Positions 8,202-43,733 of a DNA stretch of 64,000 nt are shown in pieces. The notes under the pieces were generated by a model. That model was not told where the DNA came from. It did not search any database and saw only the letters and a list, made by a program, of their open reading frames with translations. The DNA lies in NCBI RefSeq assembly GCF_053078305.1, contig NZ_CP166879.1; one strand, given 5' to 3'. The position numbers were made by a program, and so were the translations under genes. Positions within the stretch are counted from its first letter, which is position 1, and each line of letters begins with the position of its first letter.

Positions 8202-8875
8202 TGGTTGCCTCCTTTGCGAAGCTGGGCAGCAAAGTCAACTAACCACTCAGTCATTTCAACCTTCCCTATCAGGTCTGAACCAGGGTGCATACAGCAATCA
8301 CTCTGCGCCGCTTTGAAATCCTTATACTCATATTCTTGGGCCACCAGATTTTTTGCAGCTTCTATAGCAGCATCCACCCCCAGCGCCCGCACTTCAGACA
8401 GGAAAGCATCGGTGGCTGGCATATTTCCTGTTGCCTTCATGGCCTCCAAAATAACCAGAACGCCATCTCTCCCAACCTCCTCGCAGATAACCTCGGTGTT
8501 GTCGCCAACAACATCGCAGAATGCCTGAACTGCTTTACGAGCAAGTGCATTCTCCGCCGCCAGCGCCACAAGATTAGCTTCCAGCTCGGCAATACGTTTG
8601 CTTTGGGCTTCCCGTTCATCCAGCAGTGCCTGTACTACTTCAGGGTTGAAAGCTGCAATAAATTCTGCGTTGTTCTCTGCATTTTTCTGGTCATCAAAGC
8701 CAGGCCATTTGATAATGTCTCCGCAACGTTCATCCCCCGGCGTATGCACCGCATATGTATCAGTGCCCGGCGAAATGAATGCGACCCATTCGCCCTGGGT
8801 TGCCAGTTTTGCTATCTCACGTAGCGTCTGATAATTAATTTTTCTCACTGGTTGCCTCCTGGAAAATAACCGCAT
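8198..8875 (-). CDS. Ead/Ea22-like protein
   Basis: 225-aa ORF with central coiled-coil-like segment. Confidence 0.5.
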   Translation of the reverse strand: MRLFSRRQPVRKINYQTLREIAKLATQGEWVAFISPGTDTYAVHTPGDERCGDIIKWPGFDDQKNAENNAEFIAAFNPEVVQALLDEREAQSKRIAELEANLVALAAENALARKAVQAFCDVVGDNTEVICEEVGRDGVLVILEAMKATGNMPATDAFLSEVRALGVDAAIEAAKNLVAQEYEYKDFKAAQSDCCMHPGSDLIGKVEMTEWLVDFAAQLRKGGNQ

Positions 8876-10908: not shown

Positions 10909-11710
10909 GGCTTACCCCCTTGCTGACTGGTTTTACCTGTGCCCTGACGTGCTGCACGTGGCGGGCAAATTTCTGCTCCCACTGAACCTGCGTGAAAACC
11001 TTCCCCTCCGCCATCCAGTAATCCCGGAATGCGACAAGCTCAGCAGGTGTAAATTCCGGCTCAGGCAGAGCCATACCCCACACTGCTGCCCGTTGTCGAA
11101 AATCCGGCGACGGCTGCCAGACAGTGGTCATCGAAAATTTCCCGATCGGTTCGCTCAGGCCGTCCAGGTATTCAGGTTCGGCTGTCTGCAACGGCGCACC
11201 ATGCAACTCACTGGTCGGAATACTCTCGCGTTCACGCACGTTATGTGTGGGGTTTAATTCTTTTAGATCTGTATCTTTATTAGTTGCTTTTGTGTTTGCG
11301 TCATGTTCAAACACAACACCAACATTTGTTTGAACACCTGTTAAATCTCTCTCTTGTTTTGTTTGAACATATACTTCCTTTCTGCTTCTTCTGGCCTGAA
11401 CAGATGCTTTTCCGGCGGCTGATTTTTTGGTCAATTTTTCCCTGACTGATGCCAGATCTTCCTCAATCCGAAGATGCACCCATTCATCGCCGTTATCGCA
11501 AAAAAACTCACGCAAGGATGGTTCCACATCAGCCCATCGCTCGTTAGTCAGACGGGAAATTTTTGCCAGCCTGTTTTTAGGTATTGGTTTCCCTGTTTGC
11601 CAGTAATTGAACATCAGCAACAAATACGCACCGTGCTCCTCTGCGGACAAATGCATGGTGTCAGCCAGGTAATCAGCTATGTACAGTTGCATGTATGGTA
11701 ATGCGGCCAT
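10700..11710 (-). CDS. Replication initiator O-like / YdaU-like (DUF1376) protein
   Basis: ATG at 11710 gives MAALPYMQLYIADYL... N-terminus; iteron-like repeats lie inside the coding sequence. Confidence 0.6.
   Translation of the reverse strand: MAALPYMQLYIADYLADTMHLSAEEHGAYLLLMFNYWQTGKPIPKNRLAKISRLTNERWADVEPSLREFFCDNGDEWVHLRIEEDLASVREKLTKKSAAGKASVQARRSRKEVYVQTKQERDLTGVQTNVGVVFEHDANTKATNKDTDLKELNPTHNVRERESIPTSELHGAPLQTAEPEYLDGLSEPIGKFSMTTVWQPSPDFRQRAAVWGMALPEPEFTPAELVAFRDYWMAEGKVFTQVQWEQKFARHVQHVRAQVKPVSKGVSHAASGGTASRAVQEIRAAREQWERDNGFISNGNGLEAVGAYGGGVFEPLDSEERGRTFEALDCPDWCDD
11300..11372. repeat. Putative replication origin iterons
   Basis: Three copies of TGTTYRAACA (11304-11313, 11327-11336, 11361-11370) followed by AT-rich DNA, inside the O-like gene. 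Confidence 0.4.
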
Positions 11711-11796
11711 AATTGCCTCATCTTGTGACGAACCATCCTCTGGTGATATTCTGTGATTCCCCAATCAACAGAATCAGCAGGGGGCTGGCATAAATA

Positions 11797-12234
11797 TCAA
11801 TGCACCACAACAGACTCGCCGGATGACCCGCCGTCGCTGAAATACGCTTTCCGGTAAACGGCCTGGACAGCATCATCATGTGCATCAATTGCCGTGCTCA
11901 ACGCTTCCTGCGCCGCCAGTAATGCACGGCGCTCAACAGTGTCAAAAATACTGAGGTGATAACGCAGTTCACGCGGAAGAACAGTCAGGATAGCCGGAAT
12001 TAGTGCCTGAATTTTTTCAACAGCATCAGGCGTATCCTTTTCAAGCCAGCGAAAAATATTTTGTATATTCAATCCAATACCCTCTGTCGTAGAGGTGTCA
12101 TGCATTGGTGGATAAGTCATTTCAAGCTCAAAATATGCTGTCGCTATATCATCAGCGATTTTTTTGCGCCCTACCCTCGGATAAAGCAGCCACGCATTCA
12201 TCGCCATGCGGATGTGCTCATGCTTGATTTTCAT
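11797..12234 (-). CDS. YdaT-like protein (cII-position gene)
   Basis: 145-aa ORF directly downstream of the cro-like gene, as ydaT is in Rac. Confidence 0.45.
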   Translation of the reverse strand: MKIKHEHIRMAMNAWLLYPRVGRKKIADDIATAYFELEMTYPPMHDTSTTEGIGLNIQNIFRWLEKDTPDAVEKIQALIPAILTVLPRELRYHLSIFDTVERRALLAAQEALSTAIDAHDDAVQAVYRKAYFSDGGSSGESVVVH

Positions 12235-12491
12235 GAATCAACTCCCGCCGCTGCTTGTGCGTTAGCCTGATACTCAACAGGTAAACCATCGGTTGGATTA
12301 GGGTATTTATCAGGGCGCAATTCATGCGGAGTTACTCCCCAGTCAAGCGCCTCACATGCTGGTATAACCTCCTCCGCTGGCACTCGTTTTTTAAACCACC
12401 CACTTATGGTTTGCGGTGTTTTACCAAGACGACGCCCTAATTCTGATTGGCTCATTATTGACAGGATTTTCACTTGAGTACTTTTTTGCAT
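12231..12491 (-). CDS. Cro-like HTH regulator (YdaS-like)
   Basis: 86-aa ORF with XRE-type HTH (SQSELGRRLGKTPQTISGW); divergent from the cI-like gene. Confidence 0.6.
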   Translation of the reverse strand: MQKSTQVKILSIMSQSELGRRLGKTPQTISGWFKKRVPAEEVIPACEALDWGVTPHELRPDKYPNPTDGLPVEYQANAQAAAGVDS

Positions 12492-12519
12492 GTTTCCCTC
12501 CGAACTTTACGATGACACC

Positions 12520-12566
12520 GATGATTACAAATTTAAATTTAAATTTCAACTTCTATTTGTAATGCC
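12520..12566. promoter_or_regulatory. Putative oR operator/promoter region
   Basis: Inverted TTACAAAT...ATTTGTAA arms (12525-12562) in the 126-bp divergent intergenic region; related motif recurs at 13765-13819. Confidence 0.4.
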
Positions 12567-12617
12567 ACTTATCAATTTTTTCTGTAGGATCGCGGAACTA
12601 GTTTACGAGGGGTGGTG

Positions 12618-13010
12618 ATGATCTTTGTAAAACGCCTTCAGCAGGTGTTGCAGGAATTGAATATAAACCAGTCAGAGCTGGGAAGACGTCTTGGTGTAAA
12701 ACCCCAATCCGTGCAAGGTTGGTTGAAAGGCGTGATGCCAAGAATGGATAAACTGGAAAAATTAGCAGAGCTCTCACAACATCCCGTCCATTGGTTCTTT
12801 ATGGAAGAAGAAACTCTCGGCGATAAAATGGCTGTATCCAGTAATGACAACCAACCGCAACTTACAGAACAACAACGAAAAATCATATCGCTTTTAGATG
12901 AGTTACCTCAAAGCGACGCAGAGCAGATCATTCGTGATATGGAGCAAAAACGCGATTTCTATAAACGGAAACTTGAAGAGTTACTGCGGCAGAAAAACAA
13001 AACTGCCTGA
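12618..13010 (+). CDS. cI-like repressor (RacR-like, HTH only, no peptidase domain)
   Basis: 130-aa product from ATG 12618 (track ORF begins at GTG 12612); XRE HTH NQSELGRRLGVKPQSVQGW; RBS GAGGGG upstream. Confidence 0.6.
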   Translation: MIFVKRLQQVLQELNINQSELGRRLGVKPQSVQGWLKGVMPRMDKLEKLAELSQHPVHWFFMEEETLGDKMAVSSNDNQPQLTEQQRKIISLLDELPQSDAEQIIRDMEQKRDFYKRKLEELLRQKNKTA

Positions 13011-13056
13011 TGCATTCCTTTTCTGGAACGAGCATCAGGCAAATGACTAGCAGATT

Positions 13057-13416
13057 TTATAATCCAACCAGGCTTTCCAGGGGGATACCAAATTGATTAT
13101 GAAGACGGCGAATCATTGGTAACGTAAGGCTTCTGGTACCATTCAACACCTCATAAACCCGATTTTTTTTCCCAATTGCGGGTTCCAAATCTTTCACAGT
13201 CAGCCCCTGCTGTTCCATGCGAAATCTTATAGCTTCAATTGGGGATGGTGGCTCAATGGGATAATGTTTTTTTTCATATTCCTCTATTAGCAAACACATC
13301 ACCTCAAAAAAATCCCCCTCAGGCGTGTCAATTTCGGGCTCATTGTCGAACATGGGTTCAACAGCACGCAACGCGGCTTCATAATCTTGCTCTGTACGAA
13401 TAGGTTTGATGTTCAT
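13057..13416 (-). CDS. higA: HigA-family antitoxin (C-terminal HTH)
   Basis: 119-aa ORF; C-terminal HTH LTLPMIRRLHNQFGIPLESLV resembles K-12 HigA; directly follows the toxin gene (toxin-first order typical of hig loci). Confidence 0.8.
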   Translation of the reverse strand: MNIKPIRTEQDYEAALRAVEPMFDNEPEIDTPEGDFFEVMCLLIEEYEKKHYPIEPPSPIEAIRFRMEQQGLTVKDLEPAIGKKNRVYEVLNGTRSLTLPMIRRLHNQFGIPLESLVGL

Positions 13417-13418
13417 GC

Positions 13419-13721
13419 TTACTCCAGTTCGATGGTATCAGCATCAATAGCATCGTATTCCTTGTGGTTTCCGATGAATTTAACAAATACCCATCCTCGC
13501 TGATACGCAATTGCAACAATTAAACGGTAATGATTACCTTTTATGTTGAATACCACGCGCCGGTTTTTCAATATACTGGCCGTTCGGTATTGTGCCTTAA
13601 TGTCTGCTGGGCTTTTCCAGTCAGCTTTTGCCGCCTCATCCACCCATGCCCTTAGCGGTTGTTCTGCATCAGGATTCTCCGCCCAAAAATCCCTGAGTGT
13701 TTTAACTGAGATAATCTTCAT
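13419..13721 (-). CDS. higB: HigB-family toxin (RelE/ParE superfamily mRNA interferase)
   Basis: 100 aa from ATG 13721 (track ORF extends to TTG 13766); C-terminal FIGNHKEYD motif as in K-12 HigB; 2-nt gap to higA. Confidence 0.75.
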   Translation of the reverse strand: MKIISVKTLRDFWAENPDAEQPLRAWVDEAAKADWKSPADIKAQYRTASILKNRRVVFNIKGNHYRLIVAIAYQRGWVFVKFIGNHKEYDAIDADTIELE

Positions 13722-13764
13722 AACTGTATAGTAGTCCCATTTTGGGACTGATGCAACAGCTCGC

Positions 13765-13819
13765 AATTACAAATTTAATAATAAACATGTTGACCAGTTA
13801 AATTTTAATTTGTAAATTG
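13765..13819. promoter_or_regulatory. Putative oL operator region, overlapping the presumed higBA promoter
   Basis: AATTACAAATTTAA ... TTAATTTGTAAATT inverted arms, same core as the oR motif. Confidence 0.35.
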
Positions 13820-13995
13820 TATCCATAAACCCACCCCGCCCCACAGAACGCAGGGCAATACTTCGAGTTACCCGGCAGTGGTCAGGGGTTAAGTAGCCAG
13901 CCTGAGGCGTATGAACATGACGGCGGGGATTACGTTTAACTATGCAGCAGGTTTTTTGTTCCGCTACCCCGGCGTTAAGGGGAAATGAGGTCAAC

Positions 13996-14148
13996 ATGGA
14001 TACGCTCAATCTTGGCAACAACGAATCTCTGGTATGCGGTGTGTTCCCTAACCAGGACGGCACGTTTACCGCGATGACGTATACCAAAAGTAAAAAGTTT
14101 AAAACCGAAGCTGGCGCGCGTCGCTGGTTAGCCAGAAACACTAACTGA
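13996..14148 (+). CDS. YdaF-like small protein (DUF1391)
   Basis: 50-aa product MDTLNLGNNESLVCGVFPNQDGTFTAMTYTKSKKFKTE... closely matches Rac YdaF; RBS GAGG 6 nt upstream. Confidence 0.6.
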   Translation: MDTLNLGNNESLVCGVFPNQDGTFTAMTYTKSKKFKTEAGARRWLARNTN

Positions 14149-14960
14149 TTAGCACCAGTAAAAACAGGTTGCCACTGGTTAATTTACCCTGAAAAGTCAG
14201 GGCACAACAGAAAGCACACGGCGAAGGCGTCTTTTCCTTAGAAGGCTTGTCGTTAGATTTCTTCGACCGTGTGCTTCCGGTTGTGGCAATCCGCGAAATG
14301 GCGCGGCGGTAAATATGGCTGGGGGTTTTTATTTCTTTTCCCCTCATTGAGGACACCGGGTTGTCAGGTTGACCATATGCCTGAGTGACAACCCCGCCAC
14401 AACATCTCCATGTTTCAATGGCAGTGGTACCTTTGGCGGCATCAGTTTATTAGCTTTCTGATGTCCGCCCTTTTTAAAGTGAATTTTGTGATGCGGTGAA
14501 TGCGGCTAAGCGCACGCGGAACAGTTAAAACCGTAAAGTGGTCTTTTACGGGGCGTAACGGGCATACTTCTGTATTCCGGCGTTAATTGTTAACTGGTTA
14601 ACGTCACCTGGAGGCACCAGGCACTGCATCGACAAAGTTCACTTCGGTGATGAAAGGTAAGAGAAAATGTTGAATGTAGCTATTGAAAACCAGAACGGGT
14701 GGAATTATAGTGCACCTGCACCTCATAAAGCGGGTGCCGGGATTGCTACCCCGATGTTCATCATGGCGCATAACCGCGCTCAGGCGTTTTTTTTATGCGT
14801 AATGCACAGCCACATTCAGATTATGGTGGGGCGTGCAGGGCAGCCGCAAGGCTGGCCGGGTTCCATGATGACCGGTTGTAGCAACCCTGTGCGTCTCACC
14901 ACCCATGAGATTGCTACCTCCGGTGGTGAGTTAATGAAATTCATCATGGAGGCTGCCATC

Positions 14961-15518
14961 ATGGCTACTATCCCTGCCCTTTCTCACCCTGAAATTACTA
15001 TCGCCAATGGGCGTGCTGTTACATCCTCTTTAGCTGTTGCCGAGTATTTCCGGAAACCACACAAAGATGTACTGGCAAAAATTTCACGTCTAGACTGTTC
15101 AGCAGAATTCACTGAGCGAAATTTTTCGCCCAGTGAATATACCGACTCAACCGGGCGCAAACTCCCTATGTACCAAATCACCAAAAACGGCTTCGTTTTC
15201 CTGGTGATGGGCTTCACCGGCAAAAAAGCCGCTGCATTTAAAGAAGCCTACATCGCTGAGTTCGATCGCATGGAGAAAGAACTGCGCCAGAATAACGCCC
15301 CGTCTCCCGACAAAATGATTCACGGGGACGGACGTACCCTGGTTATCCGTCTCGACGAACACGGCAATATCAAATTCACTGAAACCGTTCCTGATGGTGC
15401 AATGGTCTGCACCCTGGATACCTTCCAGTTTTATCTGGAGAAACAAGGCTGGACTCTTGTAAACCGGAGCGCAATTAAAAATATGACTGTGGAGCAATTA
15501 CTAAAAATTCATTGTTGA
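14961..15518 (+). CDS. Rha-family phage regulatory protein
   Basis: Rha N-terminal signature ITIANGRAVTSSLAVAEYFRKPHKDVL; GGAGG RBS before ATG 14961; track ORF begins at 14667 but the 5' extension looks non-coding. Confidence 0.65.
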   Translation: MATIPALSHPEITIANGRAVTSSLAVAEYFRKPHKDVLAKISRLDCSAEFTERNFSPSEYTDSTGRKLPMYQITKNGFVFLVMGFTGKKAAAFKEAYIAEFDRMEKELRQNNAPSPDKMIHGDGRTLVIRLDEHGNIKFTETVPDGAMVCTLDTFQFYLEKQGWTLVNRSAIKNMTVEQLLKIHC

Positions 15519-15528
15519 GGACGCGATA

Positions 15529-15717
15529 ATGGAAACGTTATTACCAAACGTTAATACGTCTGAAGGGTGTTTTGATATTGGTATTCTGCTCAGTAACCGG
15601 GAGTTTACTGAAGATGCCATTAAGATGAGAAAATATGAGCCTTATCTTCTCAATGATAATTCCATACTCTCCAGAATTGCCCTTCTTAAACTTGGTATTT
15701 TCGGAGGGCAGCAGTGA
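15529..15717 (+). CDS. Hypothetical small protein (62 aa, cytosolic)
   Basis: RBS GAGGA upstream; start abuts Rha stop; stop overlaps next start (GTGA). Confidence 0.35.
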   Translation: METLLPNVNTSEGCFDIGILLSNREFTEDAIKMRKYEPYLLNDNSILSRIALLKLGIFGGQQ

Positions 15718-15902: not shown

Positions 15903-15994
15903 TCCACCAGCCATATTAACGCCATACCCGTTGATTAAGCATGCCAGCAATGGCAGGGGTTCGTACAACCTTAAAATAGTTATGAGGTTTATCC

Positions 15995-18433
15995 ATGAGC
16001 ACTGATAAAGAAGAATTTTCGCTATATTGCGAAGCAAAAAATGACAAGGTCAGAAAACGCCTTGGGATTAAAGGAGGTTTTTACTGGACTACAGCAAAAA
16101 AATTATCTGTTGCCATCTCACGGTGCGTTGTTGCAATGGACGAGGCAGGCTACGACGCTGATGATTTCAAAAAACCTGTCCGCGTCCATTTCCCCGTTGT
16201 GAATGACCTTCCACCGGAAGGCGTGTTTGATACCGAATTCTGCAACCGCTATGAAAAAGGCGGGGAAGATGGCATCACAATGATATTTATAGCGCCTTCC
16301 CCCTCAGTTCAGGACAAACCAGCCAGCACTGACAATACCAACGTCAATGGCGAAGACATGGCTGAGATTGAGGATAATATGCTCCTGCCGATTTCCGGTC
16401 AGGAACTGCCCATTCGCTGGCTTGCGCAACATGGCAGCGAAAAACCGGTAACGCACGTTTCACGGGAAGAACTTCAGGCATTACATATCGCACGAGCTGA
16501 AGAACTGCCGGCTGTTACTGCCCTGGCTATTTCCCACAACACAAAGCTGCTCGACCCGCTGGAGATTCGCGACCTTCATAAACTGGTACGCGACACAGAC
16601 AAAGTTTTCCCTAATCCCGTTAATTCCAGTCTGGGGTTAATGACTGCTTTTTTCGAAGCATACCTGGACGCTGACTATACCGATCGAGGTCTGCTGACAA
16701 AAGAGTGGATGAAAGGAAATCGTGTTTCTCGCATCACCCGCACGGCTTCCGGTGCAAATGCCGGTGGCGGAAATAAAACCGATCGTAATCCTGACTTAGT
16801 ACACACCCTCGATACTCTGGATGTGGAGGCTGCAGCAGCCACACTTCCGATGGATTTTAATATTTATGAAATACCCGTGAGCGTTTATCGTCGCGCAAAA
16901 GAAATCGTCCTGAAAAAAGAAAGTCCGTTCAGGGAATGGTCCGCAGCACTTCGCGCAACCCCTGGTATCCTGGACTATTCCCGCGCAGCTATTTTTGCAC
17001 TTATCCGGAGCGCCCACCCTGAGTTTTATCACTACCCGGGACGCCTTCAGGGGTATATCAATGCCAACCTGACAGAAACTGATCACGAGAATCCCACAGC
17101 TGAAACGCTCATGGCTGCCCGGCATACACCGGAAAAAGATATCCTGGAAGAAATTAACGGCGGACTGGCTGCTGAGTGCAAAACAGAAGAAGAAAAAAAT
17201 GATGAAGAAAACCCGCAACCATCTGGCGCAATGGCAGATGAACAGGCAACGGCTGAAACAATGGCAGCGGATACAGTTGAACATCATCAGGACCCGCAGC
17301 CGCTGGATGACAAGTCACAGGTAAAAGTTACTGCTGAAGAAGTAAATAAAATTATGGAGGCAGCAGACATCAGTCGACCAGATGCCGACAAATTGCTTGC
17401 CGCTTCTCGTGGTGAGTTTGTTGAAGGGATTAGCGACCCGAATGATTCGAAATGGGTTAAGGGGATTGAAACCTGCGATTCTGTGAACCAGAACCAGCAA
17501 GAAACGGAACAGAACGGTCAGAAAGCGGAACAAAACAGCCCAAATGCGTTACAAAACGAGCCAGAAACGAAACAACCTGAACCAGTAGTGCAACAGGAAG
17601 AGGAAAAAGTTTGTACCGCATGCAATCAGACTGGTGGTGGTAACTGCCCTGATTGTGGCGCAGTGATGGGGGACGCAACCTACCAGGAGACATTCAACGA
17701 AGAAAGCCAGGATGAAGCCCGGGAAAAAGATCCGGAGGAAATGGAAAGTGCCGGACTCCCGAACAAGGAGTGCACCGAAGGCGATCAACATGCCAATGGC
17801 AATAATGAAACAGGCGAGACAGCAAATCCCTTAATTAAGGTGAACGGTCATCGTGAAATCACATCCACCAGCAGGTTATGGCACCATCTGATGATTGACC
17901 TTGAAACAATGGGCAAAAATCCTGACGCACCAATAGCCTCAATAGGCGCTGTATTTTTCGATCCACAAACCGGAGAGCAGGGGCCTGAATTCAGCAAAAT
18001 AATTGATATGGGTACATGTGGCGGCACTGTAGACATAAGCACCATCGAATGGTGGCTTCAACGCTCTGGCGAAGCCCGTGCCGCCATTTTAGCTGATCGA
18101 ATACCGCTTGATGATGCGCTTTTACAATTACGGGAATTTATAGACGAAAACTCCGGTGAGTTTTTTGTTCAGGTCTGGGGAAATGGAGCCAACTTCGACA
18201 ACGTGATTTTACGCCGTTCATATGAACGGCAGGAGATCCCCTGCCCGTGGCGTTACACCAATGATCGTGATGTAAGAACGATTGTTGCCCTGGGGCTGGT
18301 GATGGATTTCGATGCTCGAAGTGTCATCACATTTGAGGGTGAACGCCATAATGCCCTGCACGATGCGCGTTACCAGGCAAAATACGTTTCAGCTATCTGG
18401 CAAAAACTGTTCCCGAATCAGGCTGATTTTTAA
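15995..18433 (+). CDS. Large protein with C-terminal DEDDh-type 3'-5' exonuclease domain, central acidic low-complexity region and zinc-ribbon-like Cys cluster
   Basis: 812-aa ORF with RBS; Exo I MIDLETMG, Exo [14 protein letters not shown], Exo [16 protein letters not shown]; [16 protein letters not shown]; sits between Rha module and xis/int. Confidence 0.6.
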
Positions 18434-18499: not shown

Positions 18500-18751
18500 A
18501 TGTACGAATTAACTCTATCGCCAGCAGAAATTCAAGAGATCACGAGATACGAACGGTATACAAAACAGCAACAACAGTTAAGGTTGCACGGTATCCCATT
18601 TGTACCCGGTCCTAAAAACGAACCAATAGTTCTTCGCAGTGATGTCCCGCGCGGACTGACTGCGATACCGAAAGTATCTGAACTGGTTTCTGCTGACCCC
18701 GATTTTGAGGCGCTGAACAATGGGAAGACCAAGAAAAAACAAAAAAGATAA
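18500..18751 (+). CDS. Putative excisionase (Xis-position small basic protein)
   Basis: 83-aa ORF immediately upstream of and overlapping int, as lambda xis does. Confidence 0.4.
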   Translation: MYELTLSPAEIQEITRYERYTKQQQQLRLHGIPFVPGPKNEPIVLRSDVPRGLTAIPKVSELVSADPDFEALNNGKTKKKQKR

Positions 18752-19739
18752 TGCACTACCGCCACGTGTTAGATCGAATGGTTACAGTTACGTATGGAAA
18801 CCCGAAGGAAGCACAAAAACTATAGGGCTAGGAAGAGTGCGGGAAACCAGCATAGCTAAAGTCTGGCAGAATTATGAACTGGAAAAAGCAAAACGCCACA
18901 ACATAATGACCGTCGCTAAATTATGGCACATGTTTATGGATTCCCCCGCATTTACAGAACTGGCCCCCAGAACCCAAAAAGATTATCGGCAACATCAGAG
19001 GGCGTTACTGGCAGTCTTCGGAAAAGTACTGGCTGATAATGTAAAAATTGAGCAGGTAAGAATTTTCATGGATAAACGGGGGATTGAGAGCAAGACCCAG
19101 GCAAACCATGAACTGGCAAGTCTCAGTCGTGTATACGGGTGGGGATATGAGCGTGGATATGTGAAGAATAACCCATGCAAAGGAGTCAGGAAATTTACGC
19201 TTAAAGCCCGCACTGTTTACATCACAGATGAACAGTATGCGGCGATATATGCGGAAGCAATACCACAGTTACGCATTGCAATGGAGATATCCTATCTTTG
19301 TGCGGCAAGACTCGGTGATGTGCTCGAGCTGAAATGGCAGGATATTATGGATAAAGGAATCTACATTGAGCAAAACAAGACCGGCACCAAACAAATCAAG
19401 GAATGGTCTCCACGATTACGAACCGCGATCCAGTTAGCCAGAAATGTATCTTCAGGCACATGTGAATATGTGATCAACACAACCAAGGGCGGGAAGGTCA
19501 TAGCTAAAACGCTAAACAACTGGTGGAACCAGGCTAAACACGCAGCCGAGAAAAAATCCGGCGTCCCGTTTGGGTGCAATTTCCATGACATAAAAGCCAA
19601 AGGAATATCAGATTACGAAGGAAGCAGTCGCGACAAACAGATTTTCAGTGGACATAAAACAGAAAATCAGGTGTTGATTTATGATCGTAAAACAAAAATC
19701 ACGCCGACACTGGATTTGCCACTTGTGGTCAGCAAGTAG
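18720..19739 (+). CDS. int: Lambda-family tyrosine integrase
   Basis: 339-aa ORF; N-terminus MGRPRKNKKDNALPPRVRSNGYSYVWKP...GLGR parallels lambda Int; 3' end faces the att site. Confidence 0.9.
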   Translation: MGRPRKNKKDNALPPRVRSNGYSYVWKPEGSTKTIGLGRVRETSIAKVWQNYELEKAKRHNIMTVAKLWHMFMDSPAFTELAPRTQKDYRQHQRALLAVFGKVLADNVKIEQVRIFMDKRGIESKTQANHELASLSRVYGWGYERGYVKNNPCKGVRKFTLKARTVYITDEQYAAIYAEAIPQLRIAMEISYLCAARLGDVLELKWQDIMDKGIYIEQNKTGTKQIKEWSPRLRTAIQLARNVSSGTCEYVINTTKGGKVIAKTLNNWWNQAKHAAEKKSGVPFGCNFHDIKAKGISDYEGSSRDKQIFSGHKTENQVLIYDRKTKITPTLDLPLVVSK

Positions 19740-19880
19740 GCAACTCAGGAAATTTTCTGGCAAAAAAGACTTGGTATACTAACTCTGAAAGCTCCCTAAC
19801 AGCCTGATTTTTCTAGGTGTTAAGTTTGGTTAATTTTTCAGCTATTTTTCGTATTGCATTGATTTTTATTTATTTTTCAT

Positions 19881-19940
19881 CGGTCTTGAAAACCGGCGAC
19901 CCGAAAGGGTTCCAGAGTTCGAATCTCTGCGCTTCCGCCA
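19881..19940 (+). other. 3' 60 nt of tRNA-Ser (serT) without the 5' part: prophage attachment-site core at the right junction
   Basis: CGGTCTTGAAAACCGGCGACCCGAAAGGGTTCCAGAGTTCGAATCTCTGCGCTTCCGCCA matches serT positions 29-88 as I recall the K-12 gene; preceding DNA is AT-rich phage arm. Confidence 0.85.
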
Positions 19941-19948
19941 GATAAGAT

Positions 19949-39705: not shown

Positions 39706-41613
39706 TCAGCCACCATTTTTTAACGCTTCAAGATACTCCCAGCGTTCAAAGGCTTGCTCCAGCTCCTGCTCTGCAGCAGCCATATCAGCGAGCACTTTTT
39801 GTGTCTGCTCATGCGGCTGACTGAAGAAGGAAGCATCCGCCACCTGCGTCTGTAGGGCTTCCAGCTTCGCCTCCAGATCTTCGAGCAATTGCGGTAGCTG
39901 CTCCAGTTCGCGCTGCAATTTATAGCTTAGTTTGCTACTGCTGCGTTTTACAGTTTCTGCTTTTGGCGCGGCGGCTTCTTCGTTTTTTTTCACCGCAGGC
40001 TGTTTGAGCGCCACATACTGCTCTTGCTGACCACGGGCGTCATGATAACCGCCGACATAACGACCAATTTTACCGCCGCCTTCGAAGATCCAGCATTCTG
40101 TAACGGTGTTATCAACAAACTGACGATCGTGGCTTACCAGCAATACCGTGCCCTGGTAGCTGTCGATCAGTTCTTCCAGCAGCTCCAGCGTTTCGACATC
40201 AAGATCGTTGGTCGGTTCGTCAAGAATCAATAAGTTGCTTGGTTTGAGGAACAAACGCGCCAGCAGCAAGCGGTTCCGCTCACCGCCAGAAAGCGCACGT
40301 ACTGGCGTCATCGCCCGTTTCGGATGGAACAGGAAGTCCTGCAAATAGCCCAAAACGTGGCGTGGCTTGCCGTTAACCATCACCTCTTGCTTACCTTCGG
40401 CAAGGTTATCCATCACCGTTTTATCGGGATCAAGTTCCGCGCGGTGCTGATCGAAATAAGCCACTTCCAGTTTGGTGCCAACGTGAATACGCCCGCTGTC
40501 CGCTTGAAGCTGACCGAGCATCAGTTTCAGCAGCGTGGTTTTGCCGCAGCCATTCGACCCAATCAGGGCAATTTTGTCGCCACGTAGAACCTGGGCAGAA
40601 AAATCTTTCACCAGTTGCTTTCCGTCAACCTGGTAGCAAACGTCTTCCATTTCGAAAACGATCTTACCGGAGCGGCTGGCCTCTTCCACCTGCATCTTTG
40701 CGGTACCCATCACTTCGCGACGTTCGCCACGCTCGCGACGCATCGCTTTCAGGGCGCGTACGCGGCCTTCATTACGGGTACGGCGTGCTTTGATCCCCTG
40801 GCGAATCCACACTTCTTCCTGCGCCAGTTTGCGATCGAACTCGGCATTTTGTAGTTCTTCCACGCGCAGGGCTTCTTCTTTTTCCAGCAGGTACTGATCG
40901 TAATTGCCCGGATAGGTCACCAGCTTGCCGCGATCGAGATCAACAATGCGCGTCGCCATATTGCGGATAAACGAACGGTCGTGGGAGATGAAAATAATCG
41001 TCCCATTGAAGGTTTTAAGGAACCCCTCCAGCCAGTCGATGGTTTCGATATCCAGATGGTTAGTCGGTTCGTCCAGCAGCAATACGCGCGGATTGCTCAC
41101 CAGCGCGCGTCCTAATGCCGCTTTACGCAACCAGCCGCCGGAAAGCGACGACAGCGCAACGTTAGGATCTAACCCCAGTTGCGCCAGCACTTCGTTGATG
41201 CGGTTTTCCAGCTGCCACAGGTTGTGGTGATCCAGCTGTTCCTGAACCTTTGCCAGTTCGTTGAGATTTTTCTCGCTCGGGTCGTTCATCACCAGGCGCG
41301 AAATATCGTGATAGCGTTTCAGGTATTCCGCTTGTTCTTCAATGCCTTCGGCAACGAAATCATAAACACTACCCTCAACGTTACGCGGCGGATCCTGTTG
41401 CAGACGCGCTACAATCAAATCCTGCTCGTAAATAATGCGACCGTCATCCAGCCCTTGTTCACGGTTGAGGATTTTCATTAACGTCGATTTGCCTGCGCCG
41501 TTGCGGCCCACCAGACAAACACGTTCGTTATCTTCGATATGCAGTTCTGCGTTATCGAGAAGCGGCGCGTCGCTGAACGACAGCCATGCGCCATGCATAC
41601 TGATTAATGACAT
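39706..41613 (-). CDS. uup: ABC-F ATPase Uup
   Basis: 635-aa ORF with two ABC cassettes and C-terminal coiled coil. Confidence 0.95.
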   Translation of the reverse strand: MSLISMHGAWLSFSDAPLLDNAELHIEDNERVCLVGRNGAGKSTLMKILNREQGLDDGRIIYEQDLIVARLQQDPPRNVEGSVYDFVAEGIEEQAEYLKRYHDISRLVMNDPSEKNLNELAKVQEQLDHHNLWQLENRINEVLAQLGLDPNVALSSLSGGWLRKAALGRALVSNPRVLLLDEPTNHLDIETIDWLEGFLKTFNGTIIFISHDRSFIRNMATRIVDLDRGKLVTYPGNYDQYLLEKEEALRVEELQNAEFDRKLAQEEVWIRQGIKARRTRNEGRVRALKAMRRERGERREVMGTAKMQVEEASRSGKIVFEMEDVCYQVDGKQLVKDFSAQVLRGDKIALIGSNGCGKTTLLKLMLGQLQADSGRIHVGTKLEVAYFDQHRAELDPDKTVMDNLAEGKQEVMVNGKPRHVLGYLQDFLFHPKRAMTPVRALSGGERNRLLLARLFLKPSNLLILDEPTNDLDVETLELLEELIDSYQGTVLLVSHDRQFVDNTVTECWIFEGGGKIGRYVGGYHDARGQQEQYVALKQPAVKKNEEAAAPKAETVKRSSSKLSYKLQRELEQLPQLLEDLEAKLEALQTQVADASFFSQPHEQTQKVLADMAAAEQELEQAFERWEYLEALKNGG

Positions 41614-41624
41614 TACTATTCCTT

Positions 41625-43733
41625 TCAGGCTGCGGTAATCAGCCAGCAGTTGTGGATCTGGCGGTTACGGGCGAAATCCTGGGAGAGCGTTTTTTGCGTA
41701 ATTTCTTGTGCTTTCAGTCCCAGTTTTGCCAGGCCGTCGAGATCCATACGGAAGCCACGTTTGTTGTTCGAGAACATGATCGTCCCACCTGCACGCAGCA
41801 GACGTTTCAAATCTTTCATCAGCGCCAGATGATCGCGCTGAACATCAAACGCATCTTCCATTCGTTTTGAGTTAGAGAAGGTTGGCGGATCGATAAAGAT
41901 CAGATCGAACTGTTCATTTGCCTCACGCAGCCACGCCAGGCAATCGGCCTGAATCAGGCGATGCGCACGCCCGGTCAGGCCATTCAGACGCAGGTTGCGT
42001 TCTGCCCATTCCAGATAAGTACGCGACATATCCACGGTGGTGGTGCTGCGTGCACCGCCTAATCCCGCATGCACGGTGGCGCTGCCGGTATAAGAAAACA
42101 GGTTGAGGAAATCTTTGCCTTTGCTCATCTGACCGAGCATACGGCGGGCGATACGGTGATCGAGGAACAGACCAGTATCGAGATAATCCGTCAGGTTCAC
42201 CCACAAGTGAGCGTTATATTCGGTAACTTCAAGAAACTCGCCCTTCTCGCCCAGTTTCTGGTACTGGTTTTTGCCCTTCTGGCGTTCACGGGTTTTCAGC
42301 ACCAGTTTGTTTGGCGCAATCCCCAGTACCGAAATGGTTGCAGCGATAATATCGAACAGACGCTGACGCGCTTTGTGCGCATCAATAGTTTTTGGCGGTG
42401 CATACTCCTGCACCACCACCCAGTCGGCATAACGGTCAACGGCAACGTTATATTCCGGCAGATCGGCGTCATACAGGCGGTAACATTCAATTCCTTCCTG
42501 GCGAGCCCACTTCTCGAATTTTTTGAGGTTCTTACGCAGGCGGTTGGCGTAATCTTCCGCTACCATCGCCGGTTTGCTGTCTGGAGTGCTTTCGGCAACG
42601 TGGTAATTTTTCTGTACGCAGTCCAGCGGGCCGTTTTTCGCCTTGTACTGTTTGTCTGCACGCAGCTGCAAGCAGCTTAGCAGATCCGGCGAGGCACTAA
42701 ACAAAGAGAGATTCCAGCCACCAAACTGGTTTTTCATGATCCGACCCAGCAGGCTATGCAGCGCAATCAGCGCCGGTTCGCTGTCCAGACGTTCCCCGTA
42801 TGGCGGGTTGCTCAACACTGTGCCGTACGGCCCTTTCGGCAGCGGATTGGTCAGTTGCGCGACATCTTTCACCTCAAAGGTGATCAGTTCACCAATCCCC
42901 GCAAGACGGGCGTTAGTGCGCGCACGTTGAATCACCCGTGCGTCGCTGTCCGAACCGTAAAAATGAGAGCTATACTCAGCCAGGCCTTTACGGGCGCGAG
43001 TTTGCGCTTCTGCTTTCACTTCCTGCCAGATAGCTTCATCATGCTGCGCCCAGCCGCTAAAGCCCCAACGCCCACGGTGCAAGCCTGGTGCGCGATCGGT
43101 CGCCAGCATCGCCGCTTCAATCAGCAACGTACCGGAACCACACATCGGATCGAGCAGCGGTGTTCCTGGCTGCCAGCCGGATCGCATCACAATAGCGGCT
43201 GCCAGGGTTTCTTTGATCGGAGCAATACCAGCACGATCGCGATAGCCACGCAGATGTAAACCATCACCACTCAGATCAAGAGCGATACTGGCGGTTTCTT
43301 TATGCAGCCAGACGTTAACGCGGATATCCGGCGCATCGCGATCAACATTTGGACGCGGCAGATTTTTCCGCGTGAAAGCATTGACGATTGCGTCTTTCAC
43401 TTTCATCGCGCCGTACTGACTGTTGCGGATTGTGTCATTCAAACCACTGAAGTGGACAGCGAAGGTCGCGCCAGGATTAAACATCTCTGTCCAGTTGATC
43501 GCCTGAACACCGAGATAGAGGTCTAAATCGCTGTAAACCTTACACTCGCCCAGCGGCAACATAATACGCGAGGCCAGGCGGCTCCACATCAGGCTCTGGT
43601 AAACAAGCCGTGTGTCGCCCTTGAAATGGACCCCACCCTGAACCACCTGGCATTCAACGGCCCCCAGGTTTTCCAGTTCAGTTTTTAACAGCTCTTCCAG
43701 CCCACGGGCCGTACTGGCAAACAGAGAATTCAT
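41625..43733 (-). CDS. rlmL: 23S rRNA m2G2445/m7G2069 methyltransferase RlmKL
   Basis: 702-aa [28 protein letters not shown]... Confidence 0.95.

What the first reader, a model, noticed from the sequence alone, without database searches (positions are those of the whole stretch)
15995..18433. 812-aa protein with DEDDh 3'-5' exonuclease domain occupies the recombination-module slot without an annealase partner
The C-terminal 200 aa carry all three DnaQ/RNase T-type motifs ([27 protein letters not shown]). The rest is a Cys cluster ([16 protein letters not shown]), a long acidic Q/E-rich linker and an N-terminal region I cannot assign. Lambda carries exo/bet/gam and Rac carries recE/recT here, but no annealase-like gene is present. 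A 3'-5' DEDDh nuclease is the wrong polarity for classical phage recombination, so this could be a nuclease effector for defence, counter-defence or host takeover.
Basis: partly seen in the sequence, partly recalled or inferred. Interest (0 to 1): 0.6.

Follow-up and report, generated by a model that had tools for sequence, protein, structure and literature searches.

The report
RecE-like protein with swapped 3'-5' nuclease
This prophage gene joins the first three quarters of the recombination enzyme RecE to a nuclease that works in the opposite direction; the form is very common in E. coli and has never been tested, and it offers a way to study the unexplained front part of RecE.

Summary
The ORF is real (15995-18433, +, 812 aa) and every quoted motif is present. 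The C-terminal 190 aa are a complete DexA/Rv2179c-type DEDDh 3'-5' exonuclease (Pfam PF16473, E=1.7e-62; D635, E637, D735, H785, D790).

RecE's PD-(D/E)XK 5'-3' nuclease head has been replaced, and recT is absent.

No annealase, SSB or Gam/Abc2 is detectable anywhere in the 64-kb window, nor beside the gene in the 11 related loci inspected.

The gene is not rare. The DEDDh head occurs in 4191 of 5426 complete E. coli genomes. The recE-head/recT cassette occurs in 1818. The gene is always the last early-leftward gene before xis-int. It is under purifying selection (dN/dS about 0.15). K-12 has only a remnant, ydfE.

The same RecE-type front end also carries a Rad52/Sak-type annealase head in other prophages. 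Standalone relatives of the DEDDh head sit in an Erf-SSB-Exo-Abc2 recombination module or beside DNA polymerases.

Best reading: an early phage enzyme that processes DNA 3' ends, tethered by the RecE platform. A defence role like that of the E. coli DexA homologue EcD is not excluded. This is a catalogued but uncharacterised variant of a known kind.

The parts
15995..18433 (+). 812-aa ORF: RecE-type N-terminal platform plus a DexA-type DEDDh exonuclease head
   Evidence: ORF list; Pfam PF06630 + PF16473; NCBIfam NF007259 matches aa 1-614 only; identical protein seen on 430 public contigs, named 'exonuclease'
15995..16303 (+). N-terminal alpha/beta domain (aa 1-103)
16328..16744 (+). helical domain 2 (aa 112-250); overlaps Pfam Exonuc_VIII (aa 51-189)
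   Evidence: 87% DNA identity to K-12 recE over gene bases 339-791
16769..17176 (+). helical domain 3 (aa 259-394), with the conserved [12 protein letters not shown] motif
   Evidence: AlphaFold2 pLDDT about 94; conservation across 51 homologues
17177..17869 (+). acidic, mostly disordered tether (aa 395-625), shared with RecE
   Evidence: pLDDT below 50 over most of it; aligns to RecE up to residue 591
17393..17455 (+). conserved linear motif [21 protein letters not shown] (aa 467-487) inside the disordered tether; a candidate partner-docking site
   Evidence: conserved in RecE and across the family alignment A1; the docking function is inferred
17612..17659 (+). Cys4 cluster [16 protein letters not shown] (aa 540-555), a probable zinc ribbon
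   Evidence: conserved in RecE as CNACGQTGGDNCPDCG; present in only about 21% of family members; pLDDT 54-74
17882..18400 (+). DEDDh 3'-5' exonuclease domain (aa 630-802); catalytic residues D635, E637, D735, H785, D790
   Evidence: Pfam PF16473 E=1.7e-62; closest solved structure by sequence is T4 DexA 8kel, E=2.3e-5; catalytic columns are conserved in 16 of 17 aligned homologues, and one sister allele has Glu at the D735 position; dN/dS 0.15
15529..15717 (+). dicB-like gene, upstream in the same operon
   Evidence: phrog_1251; annotated dicB in the syntenic locus L003
15714..15902 (+). ydfD-like gene (DUF1482), immediately upstream
   Evidence: phrog_1092; annotation in L003
18500..18751 (+). 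excisionase-like gene (DUF4224), immediately downstream; recT/ralR/rcbA of Rac are absent here
18720..19739 (+). tyrosine integrase; the prophage end follows at the serT 3' fragment (about 19880-19942)

Best explanation
The gene encodes an early phage enzyme in two parts.

Shown: residues 1-614 are the RecE-family N-terminal platform. It has three confidently folded domains, then a 230-residue acidic disordered tether that carries a conserved LAAxRGxFVxGISDPxDxKW motif and a small Cys4 cluster. Residues 630-802 are a DexA/Rv2179c-type DEDDh exonuclease with all five catalytic residues. Both halves are under purifying selection. The gene is the last gene of the leftward early operon (dicB-ydfD-exo-xis-int), in the slot that recE-recT occupies in Rac. 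It never has an adjacent annealase.

Inferred: after prophage derepression the protein is made together with DicB and YdfD. The platform takes the nuclease head to the same target as RecE's own head, namely the DNA ends of replicating or recombining phage DNA. There the head removes nucleotides from free 3' ends using two metal ions. It would trim 3' single-stranded tails or flaps, or resect the 3' strand to leave 5' overhangs. Because it has no annealase of its own, it acts as a DNA-end processing activity. That activity either stands alone or relies on host functions or on annealases from co-resident prophages. It is not a self-contained Red/RecET-type two-protein recombinase.
For: The domain assignments rest.

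Catalytic residues D635, E637, D735, H785 and D790 are conserved in 16 of 17 aligned homologues (one sister allele has Glu at the D735 position), and they align with the active site of T4 DexA. Among solved structures, the DNA exonuclease DexA is the only significant sequence match. DexA digests DNA (PMC12153337).

Selection is purifying in every region: dN/dS is 0.11-0.19 at dS 0.35-0.85.

The same slot and gene order are seen in 6 E. coli loci and 5 loci holding more distant family members.

The closest standalone relatives of the head (55-57% identity) sit just upstream of xis-int. In phage mEp235 the head lies inside an Erf-SSB-Exo-Abc2 recombination module. More distant relatives sit beside DNA polymerase, helicase or primase genes.

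The 2023 review PMC11611040 states that the RecE N-terminal domain has unknown function but enhances linear-linear recombination.
Against: No substrate or activity data exist for this protein. The Pfam family is named after an exoribonuclease (Rv2179c), so an RNA substrate is possible.

No annealase, SSB or RecBCD inhibitor is encoded in the visible prophage. A 3'-5' polarity does not produce the 3' tails used by known phage annealases.

Occupying the same slot does not prove the same function.

A standalone E. coli DexA homologue, EcD, acts as an anti-T4 defence nuclease when expressed from a plasmid (PMC12153337).

Co-transcription with dicB/ydfD is inferred from gene order and from what is known of the Qin dicB operon (PMC11430063). 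It was not measured here.
Confidence: 0.45

Rival explanations
1. It is a defence nuclease of the HREX type. The DEDDh head would selectively digest the modified (for example 5hmC) DNA of superinfecting T-even-like phages, as reported for the E. coli DexA homologue EcD. The prophage would keep the gene because it protects the lysogen.
For: The head belongs to the DexA-like family. PMC12153337 shows that EcD degrades T4 DNA but not unmodified dsDNA, and that it protects E. coli from T4. That paper also reports that bacterial DexA homologues are most abundant in Escherichia. The gene is extremely widespread in prophages and is under purifying selection. Its operon partner DicB is reported to block phage entry (from my own knowledge, not checked here).
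Against: The DexA residues said to recognise 5hmC are not clearly kept. W152 aligns with T755. D169 aligns with Asp in one alignment and with V769 in another. The tetramer residue D90, which is Ala in EcD, is Asp (D707) here. EcD is a standalone protein: its cloning primers show it starts MIDTET and ends TIPETY, and it is not among the 150 closest cluster representatives. The gene lies in the repressed early operon behind toxic genes, with no promoter signal above chance. PADLOC gives only a generic hit. This idea does not explain the 615-aa RecE platform.
Confidence: 0.2
2. It is a host-takeover or nucleotide-scavenging nuclease. Like T4 DexA during host DNA breakdown, it would degrade host DNA fragments or oligonucleotides, or RNA, during lytic growth to feed phage replication.
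For: It is homologous to DexA, whose described roles include host DNA scavenging (PMC12153337 abstract). It has an early-operon position next to the host-directed genes dicB and ydfD.
Against: Lambdoid phages are not known to degrade the host chromosome (from my own knowledge). A scavenging role does not explain the fusion to the RecE platform, or that platform's alternative annealase and RecE heads.
Confidence: 0.1
3. It is a counter-defence enzyme. It would destroy a nucleic acid with a free 3' end that a host immune system needs, such as retron msDNA, reverse-transcriptase cDNA or a linear oligonucleotide signal, or it would blunt RecBCD substrates.
For: Recombination-module genes of lambdoid phages often double as modulators of host nucleases (Gam, Abc2; one search shows Abc2 next to the standalone homologue). 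The gene is mosaic and its alleles are diverse, which fits an arms race.
Against: No sequence evidence links it to any known anti-defence family. dN/dS of 0.1-0.2 shows conservation and not diversifying selection.
Confidence: 0.1
4. It is an anti-RNA-phage exonuclease of the TONDO/ISG20 type. A prophage DEDDh nuclease with an auxiliary domain would trim the 3' ends of ssRNA phage genomes.
For: The preprint PMC13344964 describes DEDDh exonucleases with unrelated auxiliary domains, carried on prophages and plasmids, that block MS2 and Qbeta. NCBI names this protein a '3'-5' exoribonuclease'.
Against: TONDOs were picked as ISG20-like proteins of fewer than 500 aa. This head matches the RNase_T/ISG20-type Pfam model only at E=0.034, against 1.7e-62 for the DexA/Rv2179c-type model. 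No TONDO sequence was available for a direct comparison.
Confidence: 0.05
5. It is a decaying relic of a recE gene in defective prophages and has no function.
For: Many carriers are cryptic prophages. Broken copies exist: a pseudogene in L001, and K-12 ydfE cut by IS2E.
Against: Intact ORFs of 790-901 aa persist across more than 4000 genomes and several genera. dN/dS is 0.11-0.19 in every region, and the catalytic residues are kept in all 17 aligned homologues apart from one Asp-to-Glu change.
Confidence: 0.03

Closest known systems
RecE (exodeoxyribonuclease VIII) of the Rac prophage, with RecT
   Same: The N-terminal approximately 600 aa are homologous (56% identity, including the Cys4 cluster and the [19 protein letters not shown] motif). 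The genomic slot is the same, at the end of the leftward early operon before xis-int. The prophage backbone is of the same type (ydaS/ydaT-like immunity region).
   Different: The nuclease head is a DEDDh 3'-5' exonuclease and not the PD-(D/E)XK 5'-3' dsDNA exonuclease (RecE 564/606-866). There is no recT. The protein scores 879 bits against the 1269-bit cutoff of the RecE equivalog model.
T4 DexA (exonuclease A; PDB 8KEL) and its E. coli homologue EcD (HREX, PMC12153337)
   Same: The head belongs to the same DEDDh subfamily (PF16473) and has an identical catalytic pentad. DexA is the closest solved structure by sequence.
   Different: DexA and EcD are standalone proteins of about 190-230 aa. 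Here the domain is the C-terminal head of an 812-aa protein. W152 of DexA is Thr here, the D169 equivalent is uncertain, and the DexA-specific loops are absent. No activity data exist for this protein.
Standalone DEDDh exonucleases of lambdoid phages (mEp235 'exonuclease', ST64B Sb30)
   Same: They are 55-57% identical to the head and occupy the same position just upstream of xis-int.
   Different: They lack the RecE platform. In mEp235 the gene is flanked by Erf, SSB and Abc2, so it has an annealase partner that the window prophage lacks.
K-12 ydfE (Qin prophage pseudogene)
   Same: It sits in the same slot after dicB-ydfD. It is the first 257 aa (98% identity) of the 823-aa sister variant, which carries the same tether and DEDDh head.
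   Different: The ydfE-type first 250 aa are unrelated to the window protein's N-terminus. In K-12 the gene is truncated by IS2E, so no intact copy exists in the standard laboratory strain.
Lambda Red (Exo-Bet-Gam)
   Same: It occupies the same functional slot in the pL operon of a lambdoid genome.
   Different: The nuclease has the opposite polarity and an unrelated fold. There is no annealase and no RecBCD inhibitor.

Membership tests
RecE / exodeoxyribonuclease VIII (NCBIfam NF007259 equivalog) | RecE N-terminal region (Pfam Exonuc_VIII and profile positions 1-602) | tested here: met
   aa 1-614 match profile positions 1-602/877, E=3e-264; PF06630 E=4e-34; 56% identity to K-12 RecE residues 42-591
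RecE / exodeoxyribonuclease VIII (NCBIfam NF007259 equivalog) | C-terminal PD-(D/E)XK 5'-3' dsDNA exonuclease domain (RecE about 564-866) | tested here: not met
   Profile positions 603-877 are unmatched; total 879 bits against a cutoff of 1269. BLASTP and phmmer find no similarity to the RecE head.
RecE / exodeoxyribonuclease VIII (NCBIfam NF007259 equivalog) | Overlapping downstream recT annealase gene | tested here: not met
   xis follows directly; no RecT hit in the window; PHROG scans were negative
DEDDh (DnaQ-like) 3'-5' exonucleases, DexA/Rv2179c subfamily (PF16473) | Full-length match to the family profile | tested here: met
   aa 630-802 match model positions 1-177/177, E=1.7e-62
DEDDh (DnaQ-like) 3'-5' exonucleases, DexA/Rv2179c subfamily (PF16473) | Catalytic Asp-Glu-Asp-His-Asp pentad | tested here: met
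   D635, E637, D735, H785 and D790 align with DexA D7, E9, D119, H186 and D191
DEDDh (DnaQ-like) 3'-5' exonucleases, DexA/Rv2179c subfamily (PF16473) | Metal-dependent 3'-5' exonuclease activity, and the substrate (DNA or RNA) | not testable with these tools
   Needs purified protein.
HREX defence nuclease (EcD type, PMC12153337) | 5hmC-recognition residues equivalent to DexA W152 and D169 | tested here: inconclusive
   W152 aligns with T755. D169 aligns with Asp in the phmmer alignment but with V769 in the MAFFT alignment.
HREX defence nuclease (EcD type, PMC12153337) | Loss of the tetramer-forming Asp (DexA D90, Ala in EcD) | tested here: not met
   D707 is retained; S87 is replaced by P704.
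HREX defence nuclease (EcD type, PMC12153337) | Protection against T4 and selective digestion of modified DNA | not testable with these tools
   An experimental phenotype.
Two-component phage recombinase (exonuclease + single-strand annealing protein; Red, RecET) | 5'-3' dsDNA exonuclease paired with an adjacent annealase | tested here: not met
   The head is DEDDh. No annealase is found in the window or in any of the 11 related loci.
Two-component phage recombinase (exonuclease + single-strand annealing protein; Red, RecET) | Position at the distal end of the leftward early operon, before xis-int | tested here: met
Known anti-phage defence systems (PADLOC-DB 2.0) | Significant match to a defence-system protein model | tested here: not met
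   Only the generic Cas-associated DEDDh model, E=2.6e-4, 19.7 bits.
TONDO / ISG20-like anti-RNA-phage exonucleases (PMC13344964) | ISG20-like (RNase_T type) DEDDh domain in a protein of fewer than 500 aa | tested here: inconclusive
   RNase_T PF00929 matches only at E=0.034, and the protein is 812 aa. No TONDO sequence was available for direct comparison.

The most novel reading that the evidence does not exclude
The N-terminal 400-600 aa of RecE, unexplained for decades, would be a portable recombination platform to which prophages attach interchangeable heads: a 5'-3' exonuclease, a 3'-5' exonuclease, or a Rad52-type annealase. The DEDDh version is the commonest in E. coli. It would define a recombination or end-joining route that needs no phage annealase and is driven by 3'-5' resection and annealing of 5' overhangs. 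This would be comparable to the exonuclease III-dependent in vivo joining of linear DNA in E. coli (recalled from my own knowledge, not checked here). The platform itself would supply end synapsis or partner recruitment.
Probability: 0.15. Interest if true: 0.8.

Novelty: new variant of a known kind. Interest (0 to 1): 0.55.

Why it matters
RecE/RecT is a main tool of recombineering, yet the first 600 residues of RecE have no known function. What is known is that they boost linear-linear recombination (PMC11611040).

This gene shows that the region is a conserved, separately selected module that prophages combine with at least three different DNA-processing heads. That gives concrete experiments: swapping heads, pulling down partners of the conserved motif in the tether, and testing recombination with a head of reversed polarity.

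The gene is also probably one of the most widespread uncharacterised prophage genes in E. coli. It is present in about 77% of complete genomes, often in several copies, including O157:H7. It has likely escaped genetic study because K-12 keeps only an IS-disrupted remnant, ydfE.

If the head turns out to act as a defence nuclease like EcD, that would matter for phage therapy and for interactions between prophages.

Tried and rejected
1. K-12 ydfE as a truncated copy of this protein. There is no similarity to the window protein, but ydfE is the N-terminus of the 823-aa sister variant.

2. K-12 DLP12 exoD as a relative. It is unrelated.

5. Literature searches. 'PF16473' returned 0 papers. 'Rv2179c' returned only mycobacterial papers. 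One search was wasted because the prefix 'rece' matched 'receptor'. I found no paper describing the RecE-N/DEDDh architecture.

6. Comparing with EcD and the TONDO proteins directly. No sequences are held. The EcD primers show it starts MIDTET and ends TIPETY, and it is not among my 150 closest cluster representatives.

7. An inducible phage carrying the gene without an annealase. The Stx2a phage record LC727873 holds a truncated copy at its end, plus a separate Rha-Gam-RecT operon 30 kb away. This is ambiguous and may be two elements. vB_EcoS-689R5 is a prophage region with host flanks.

8. An own promoter for the gene. One 9/12 match lies at 15950-15977, but the number of promoter-like sites in the region is not above the shuffle expectation.

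9. The first full-length protein search was saturated by near-identical E. coli sequences and told nothing about diversity.
Full report
**Observation.** The window holds an 812-aa ORF at 15995-18433 on the + strand. Pfam matches residues 630-802 end to end to the Rv2179c-like 3'-5' exonuclease family PF16473 (E=1.7e-62), and residues 51-189 to Exonuc_VIII PF06630 (E=4e-34). The only significant sequence match among solved structures is T4 DexA (8kel, E=2.3e-5). D635, E637, D735, H785 and D790 align with the DexA active-site residues. They are conserved in 16 of 17 aligned homologues; one sister allele has Glu at the D735 position.

The 'unassignable' N-terminal region is RecE. The NCBIfam equivalog model for exodeoxyribonuclease VIII matches residues 1-614 to profile positions 1-602 of 877. 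The score is 879 bits, below the 1269-bit cutoff, because the last third of the model is unmatched. BLASTP against K-12 RecE gives 56% identity between residues 50-614 and RecE 42-591, including the Cys4 cluster and the motif [19 protein letters not shown]. Similarity stops where RecE's nuclease domain begins. The protein is therefore the RecE N-terminal platform with RecE's PD-(D/E)XK 5'-3' nuclease head replaced by a DEDDh 3'-5' head.

**Context.** The window's first ~19.9 kb are the early region of a Rac/Qin-like lambdoid prophage integrated in serT. A 3' fragment of the tRNA lies at about 19880-19942, next to yccA. The leftward early operon reads: HTH repressor, DUF1391, Rha/Ant, dicB, ydfD-like, the 812-aa gene, xis (DUF4224), int. 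PHROG scans of 20 early-region ORFs found replication, Q-like, RusA, HNH, methylase and ead/Ea22 proteins, but no annealase or SSB. tblastn of RecT, Bet, Erf, a Rad52-like protein, lambda Exo, Gam, SSB, Abc2 and the RecE head against all 64 kb found nothing below E=0.2. The late region lies beyond the window's left edge and was not seen.

**The gene is common, not rare.** The identical protein is on 430 public contigs under the names 'exonuclease', '3'-5' exoribonuclease' or 'exodeoxyribonuclease VIII'. Among 5426 complete E. coli genomes:
- The DEDDh head is found in 4191 genomes, at 8871 places (median 2, maximum 8 per genome).
- The recE-head plus recT cassette is found in 1818 genomes, at 1929 places.

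In six E. coli loci and five loci holding more distant family members, the gene is always the last early gene before xis/int and never has an annealase next to it.

**Selection and mosaicism.** Pairwise Nei-Gojobori estimates give dN/dS of 0.11-0.19 in every region at dS of 0.35-0.85. Both the platform and the head are therefore maintained by selection. The gene is also strongly mosaic. The window's head is only about 80% identical to that of the otherwise near-identical prophage in L003. A sister variant of 823 aa has an unrelated first 250 residues but a 99%-identical head to L002. K-12's Qin pseudogene ydfE is the first 257 residues (98% identity) of that sister variant, cut by IS2E. The standard laboratory strain therefore has no intact copy, which may explain why the family has not been studied.

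**Interchangeable heads.** I searched 1.84 billion cluster representatives and then classified the hits locally. Proteins with the RecE-type platform divide as follows:
- About 17 clusters have the DEDDh head.
- About 16 clusters have the RecE PD-(D/E)XK head.
- Four clusters have a third head (P0137, P0192, P0269, P0270).
- A few have a fourth, unassigned tail.
- One is an in-frame RecE-N::RecT fusion.

**Relatives of the head.** The DEDDh domain occurs in 708 phage records. The closest standalone forms (55-57% identity) lie just upstream of xis-int. In mEp235 the domain sits inside an Erf-SSB-Exo-Abc2 module. In ST64B no recognisable annealase is nearby. More distant ones sit beside DNA polymerase (CP-T1, ACF1) or helicase/primase genes (VLCpiS10a). 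The domain is therefore a recurrent phage enzyme of DNA metabolism.

**Mechanism.** I commit to the following reading at moderate confidence (0.45). The protein is an early, derepression-dependent enzyme that processes DNA ends. The RecE platform delivers a DexA-type 3'-5' exonuclease to the DNA ends of replicating or recombining phage DNA. There it trims 3' tails or flaps, or resects the 3' strand. It does so without its own annealase.
- Shown: the domain identities, catalytic residues, purifying selection, slot, absence of an annealase, and the platform's association with recombination heads.
- Inferred: the DNA substrate, the targeting role of the platform, and co-transcription with dicB/ydfD. 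The last is based on gene order, on the absence of promoter or terminator signal above chance, and on the described Qin dicB-ydfD-ydfE transcript, which is repressed by DicA (PMC11430063).

**Rivals.**
- Defence, HREX type. Kang et al. (NAR 2025, PMC12153337) showed that a standalone E. coli DexA homologue, EcD, digests T4 DNA but not unmodified dsDNA and protects cells from T4. The window protein keeps the catalytic site, but DexA W152 is Thr here, the D169 equivalent is uncertain and D90 is retained. EcD is a different, standalone protein. The location in the repressed operon also argues against a role in the uninduced lysogen. I give this 0.2.
- Nucleotide scavenging, counter-defence, and anti-RNA-phage activity (the TONDO preprint PMC13344964) are possible but have no specific support.
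- A decaying relic is contradicted by the selection data.

**Novelty and score.** The sequence family is catalogued (Pfam architecture PF06630+PF16473, PHROG 2082/607, RefSeq 'exonuclease'). I found no publication that describes the head swap, the annealase-headed sibling, or any function. It is a new variant of a known kind, built from the RecE platform and a DexA-type nuclease. Its main value is as a route to the long-unexplained RecE N-terminal region and as a very widespread uncharacterised prophage gene. Interest: 0.55.

Noticed in passing
[not shown]
   Followed up: yes
L005 20079-20999 (K-12 ydfE) compared with L006 5643-8111: K-12's Qin pseudogene ydfE is the first 257 aa (98% identity) of an 823-aa sister variant that carries the same tether and DEDDh head. 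It is truncated by IS2E, so K-12 has no intact copy of this gene family.
   Followed up: yes
window 14718-14906: Rfam finds isrK (14718-14794) and a C4 antisense RNA (14819-14906) inside the 5' part of the 283-aa Rha/Ant-like ORF (14667-15518). This looks like a P1-type c4/ant immunity cassette embedded in a lambdoid leftward operon. The true start of the protein is probably further downstream.
   Followed up: no
window 13057-13766 (- strand): A HigB/HigA-like toxin-antitoxin pair lies between the repressor and the early-left genes. It matches PADLOC PD-Lambda-2_A (E=1.7e-40) but only the first 119 of 402 positions of PD-Lambda-2_B. It may be a reduced relative of that defence system.
   Followed up: no
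window about 19880-19942: A 3' fragment of tRNA-Ser serT (T-arm and acceptor end, then the native terminator) lies between int and yccA. No intact tRNA is called here. This is the prophage/host junction, and the intact serT copy must lie at the other prophage end, outside the window.
   Followed up: partly
window 1-2062 and 6841-7015: Two copies of the sRNA STnc100 (1-203 and 483-689), three tRNA genes (Arg-tct, Arg-tcg, Met-cat at 1811-2062) and a sok antitoxin RNA (6841-7015) lie in the prophage early-right/nin region.
   Followed up: no
proteins P0198, P0214, P0231; P0127: There is a fourth, unassigned C-terminal tail type on the RecE platform (phrog_26058, with the conserved motif LT(Y/F)(R/K)QQLxxAAxxGLCANP). 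One cluster, P0127, is an in-frame RecE-N::RecT fusion.
   Followed up: partly
window 15995-18433 compared with L003 15554-17992: The otherwise near-identical prophage at the same site in strain FHI_NMBU_10 has a 100%-identical N-terminus (aa 1-260) but a DEDDh head that is only 81% identical. This indicates a recombination breakpoint inside the gene.
   Followed up: partly
L022 (LC727873) 11615-14210 and 41007-42986: This Stx2a-converting phage record holds a truncated copy of the exonuclease at its end, and a separate Rha, unknown, Gam-like, RecT-like operon 30 kb away. The record may combine two elements.
   Followed up: partly
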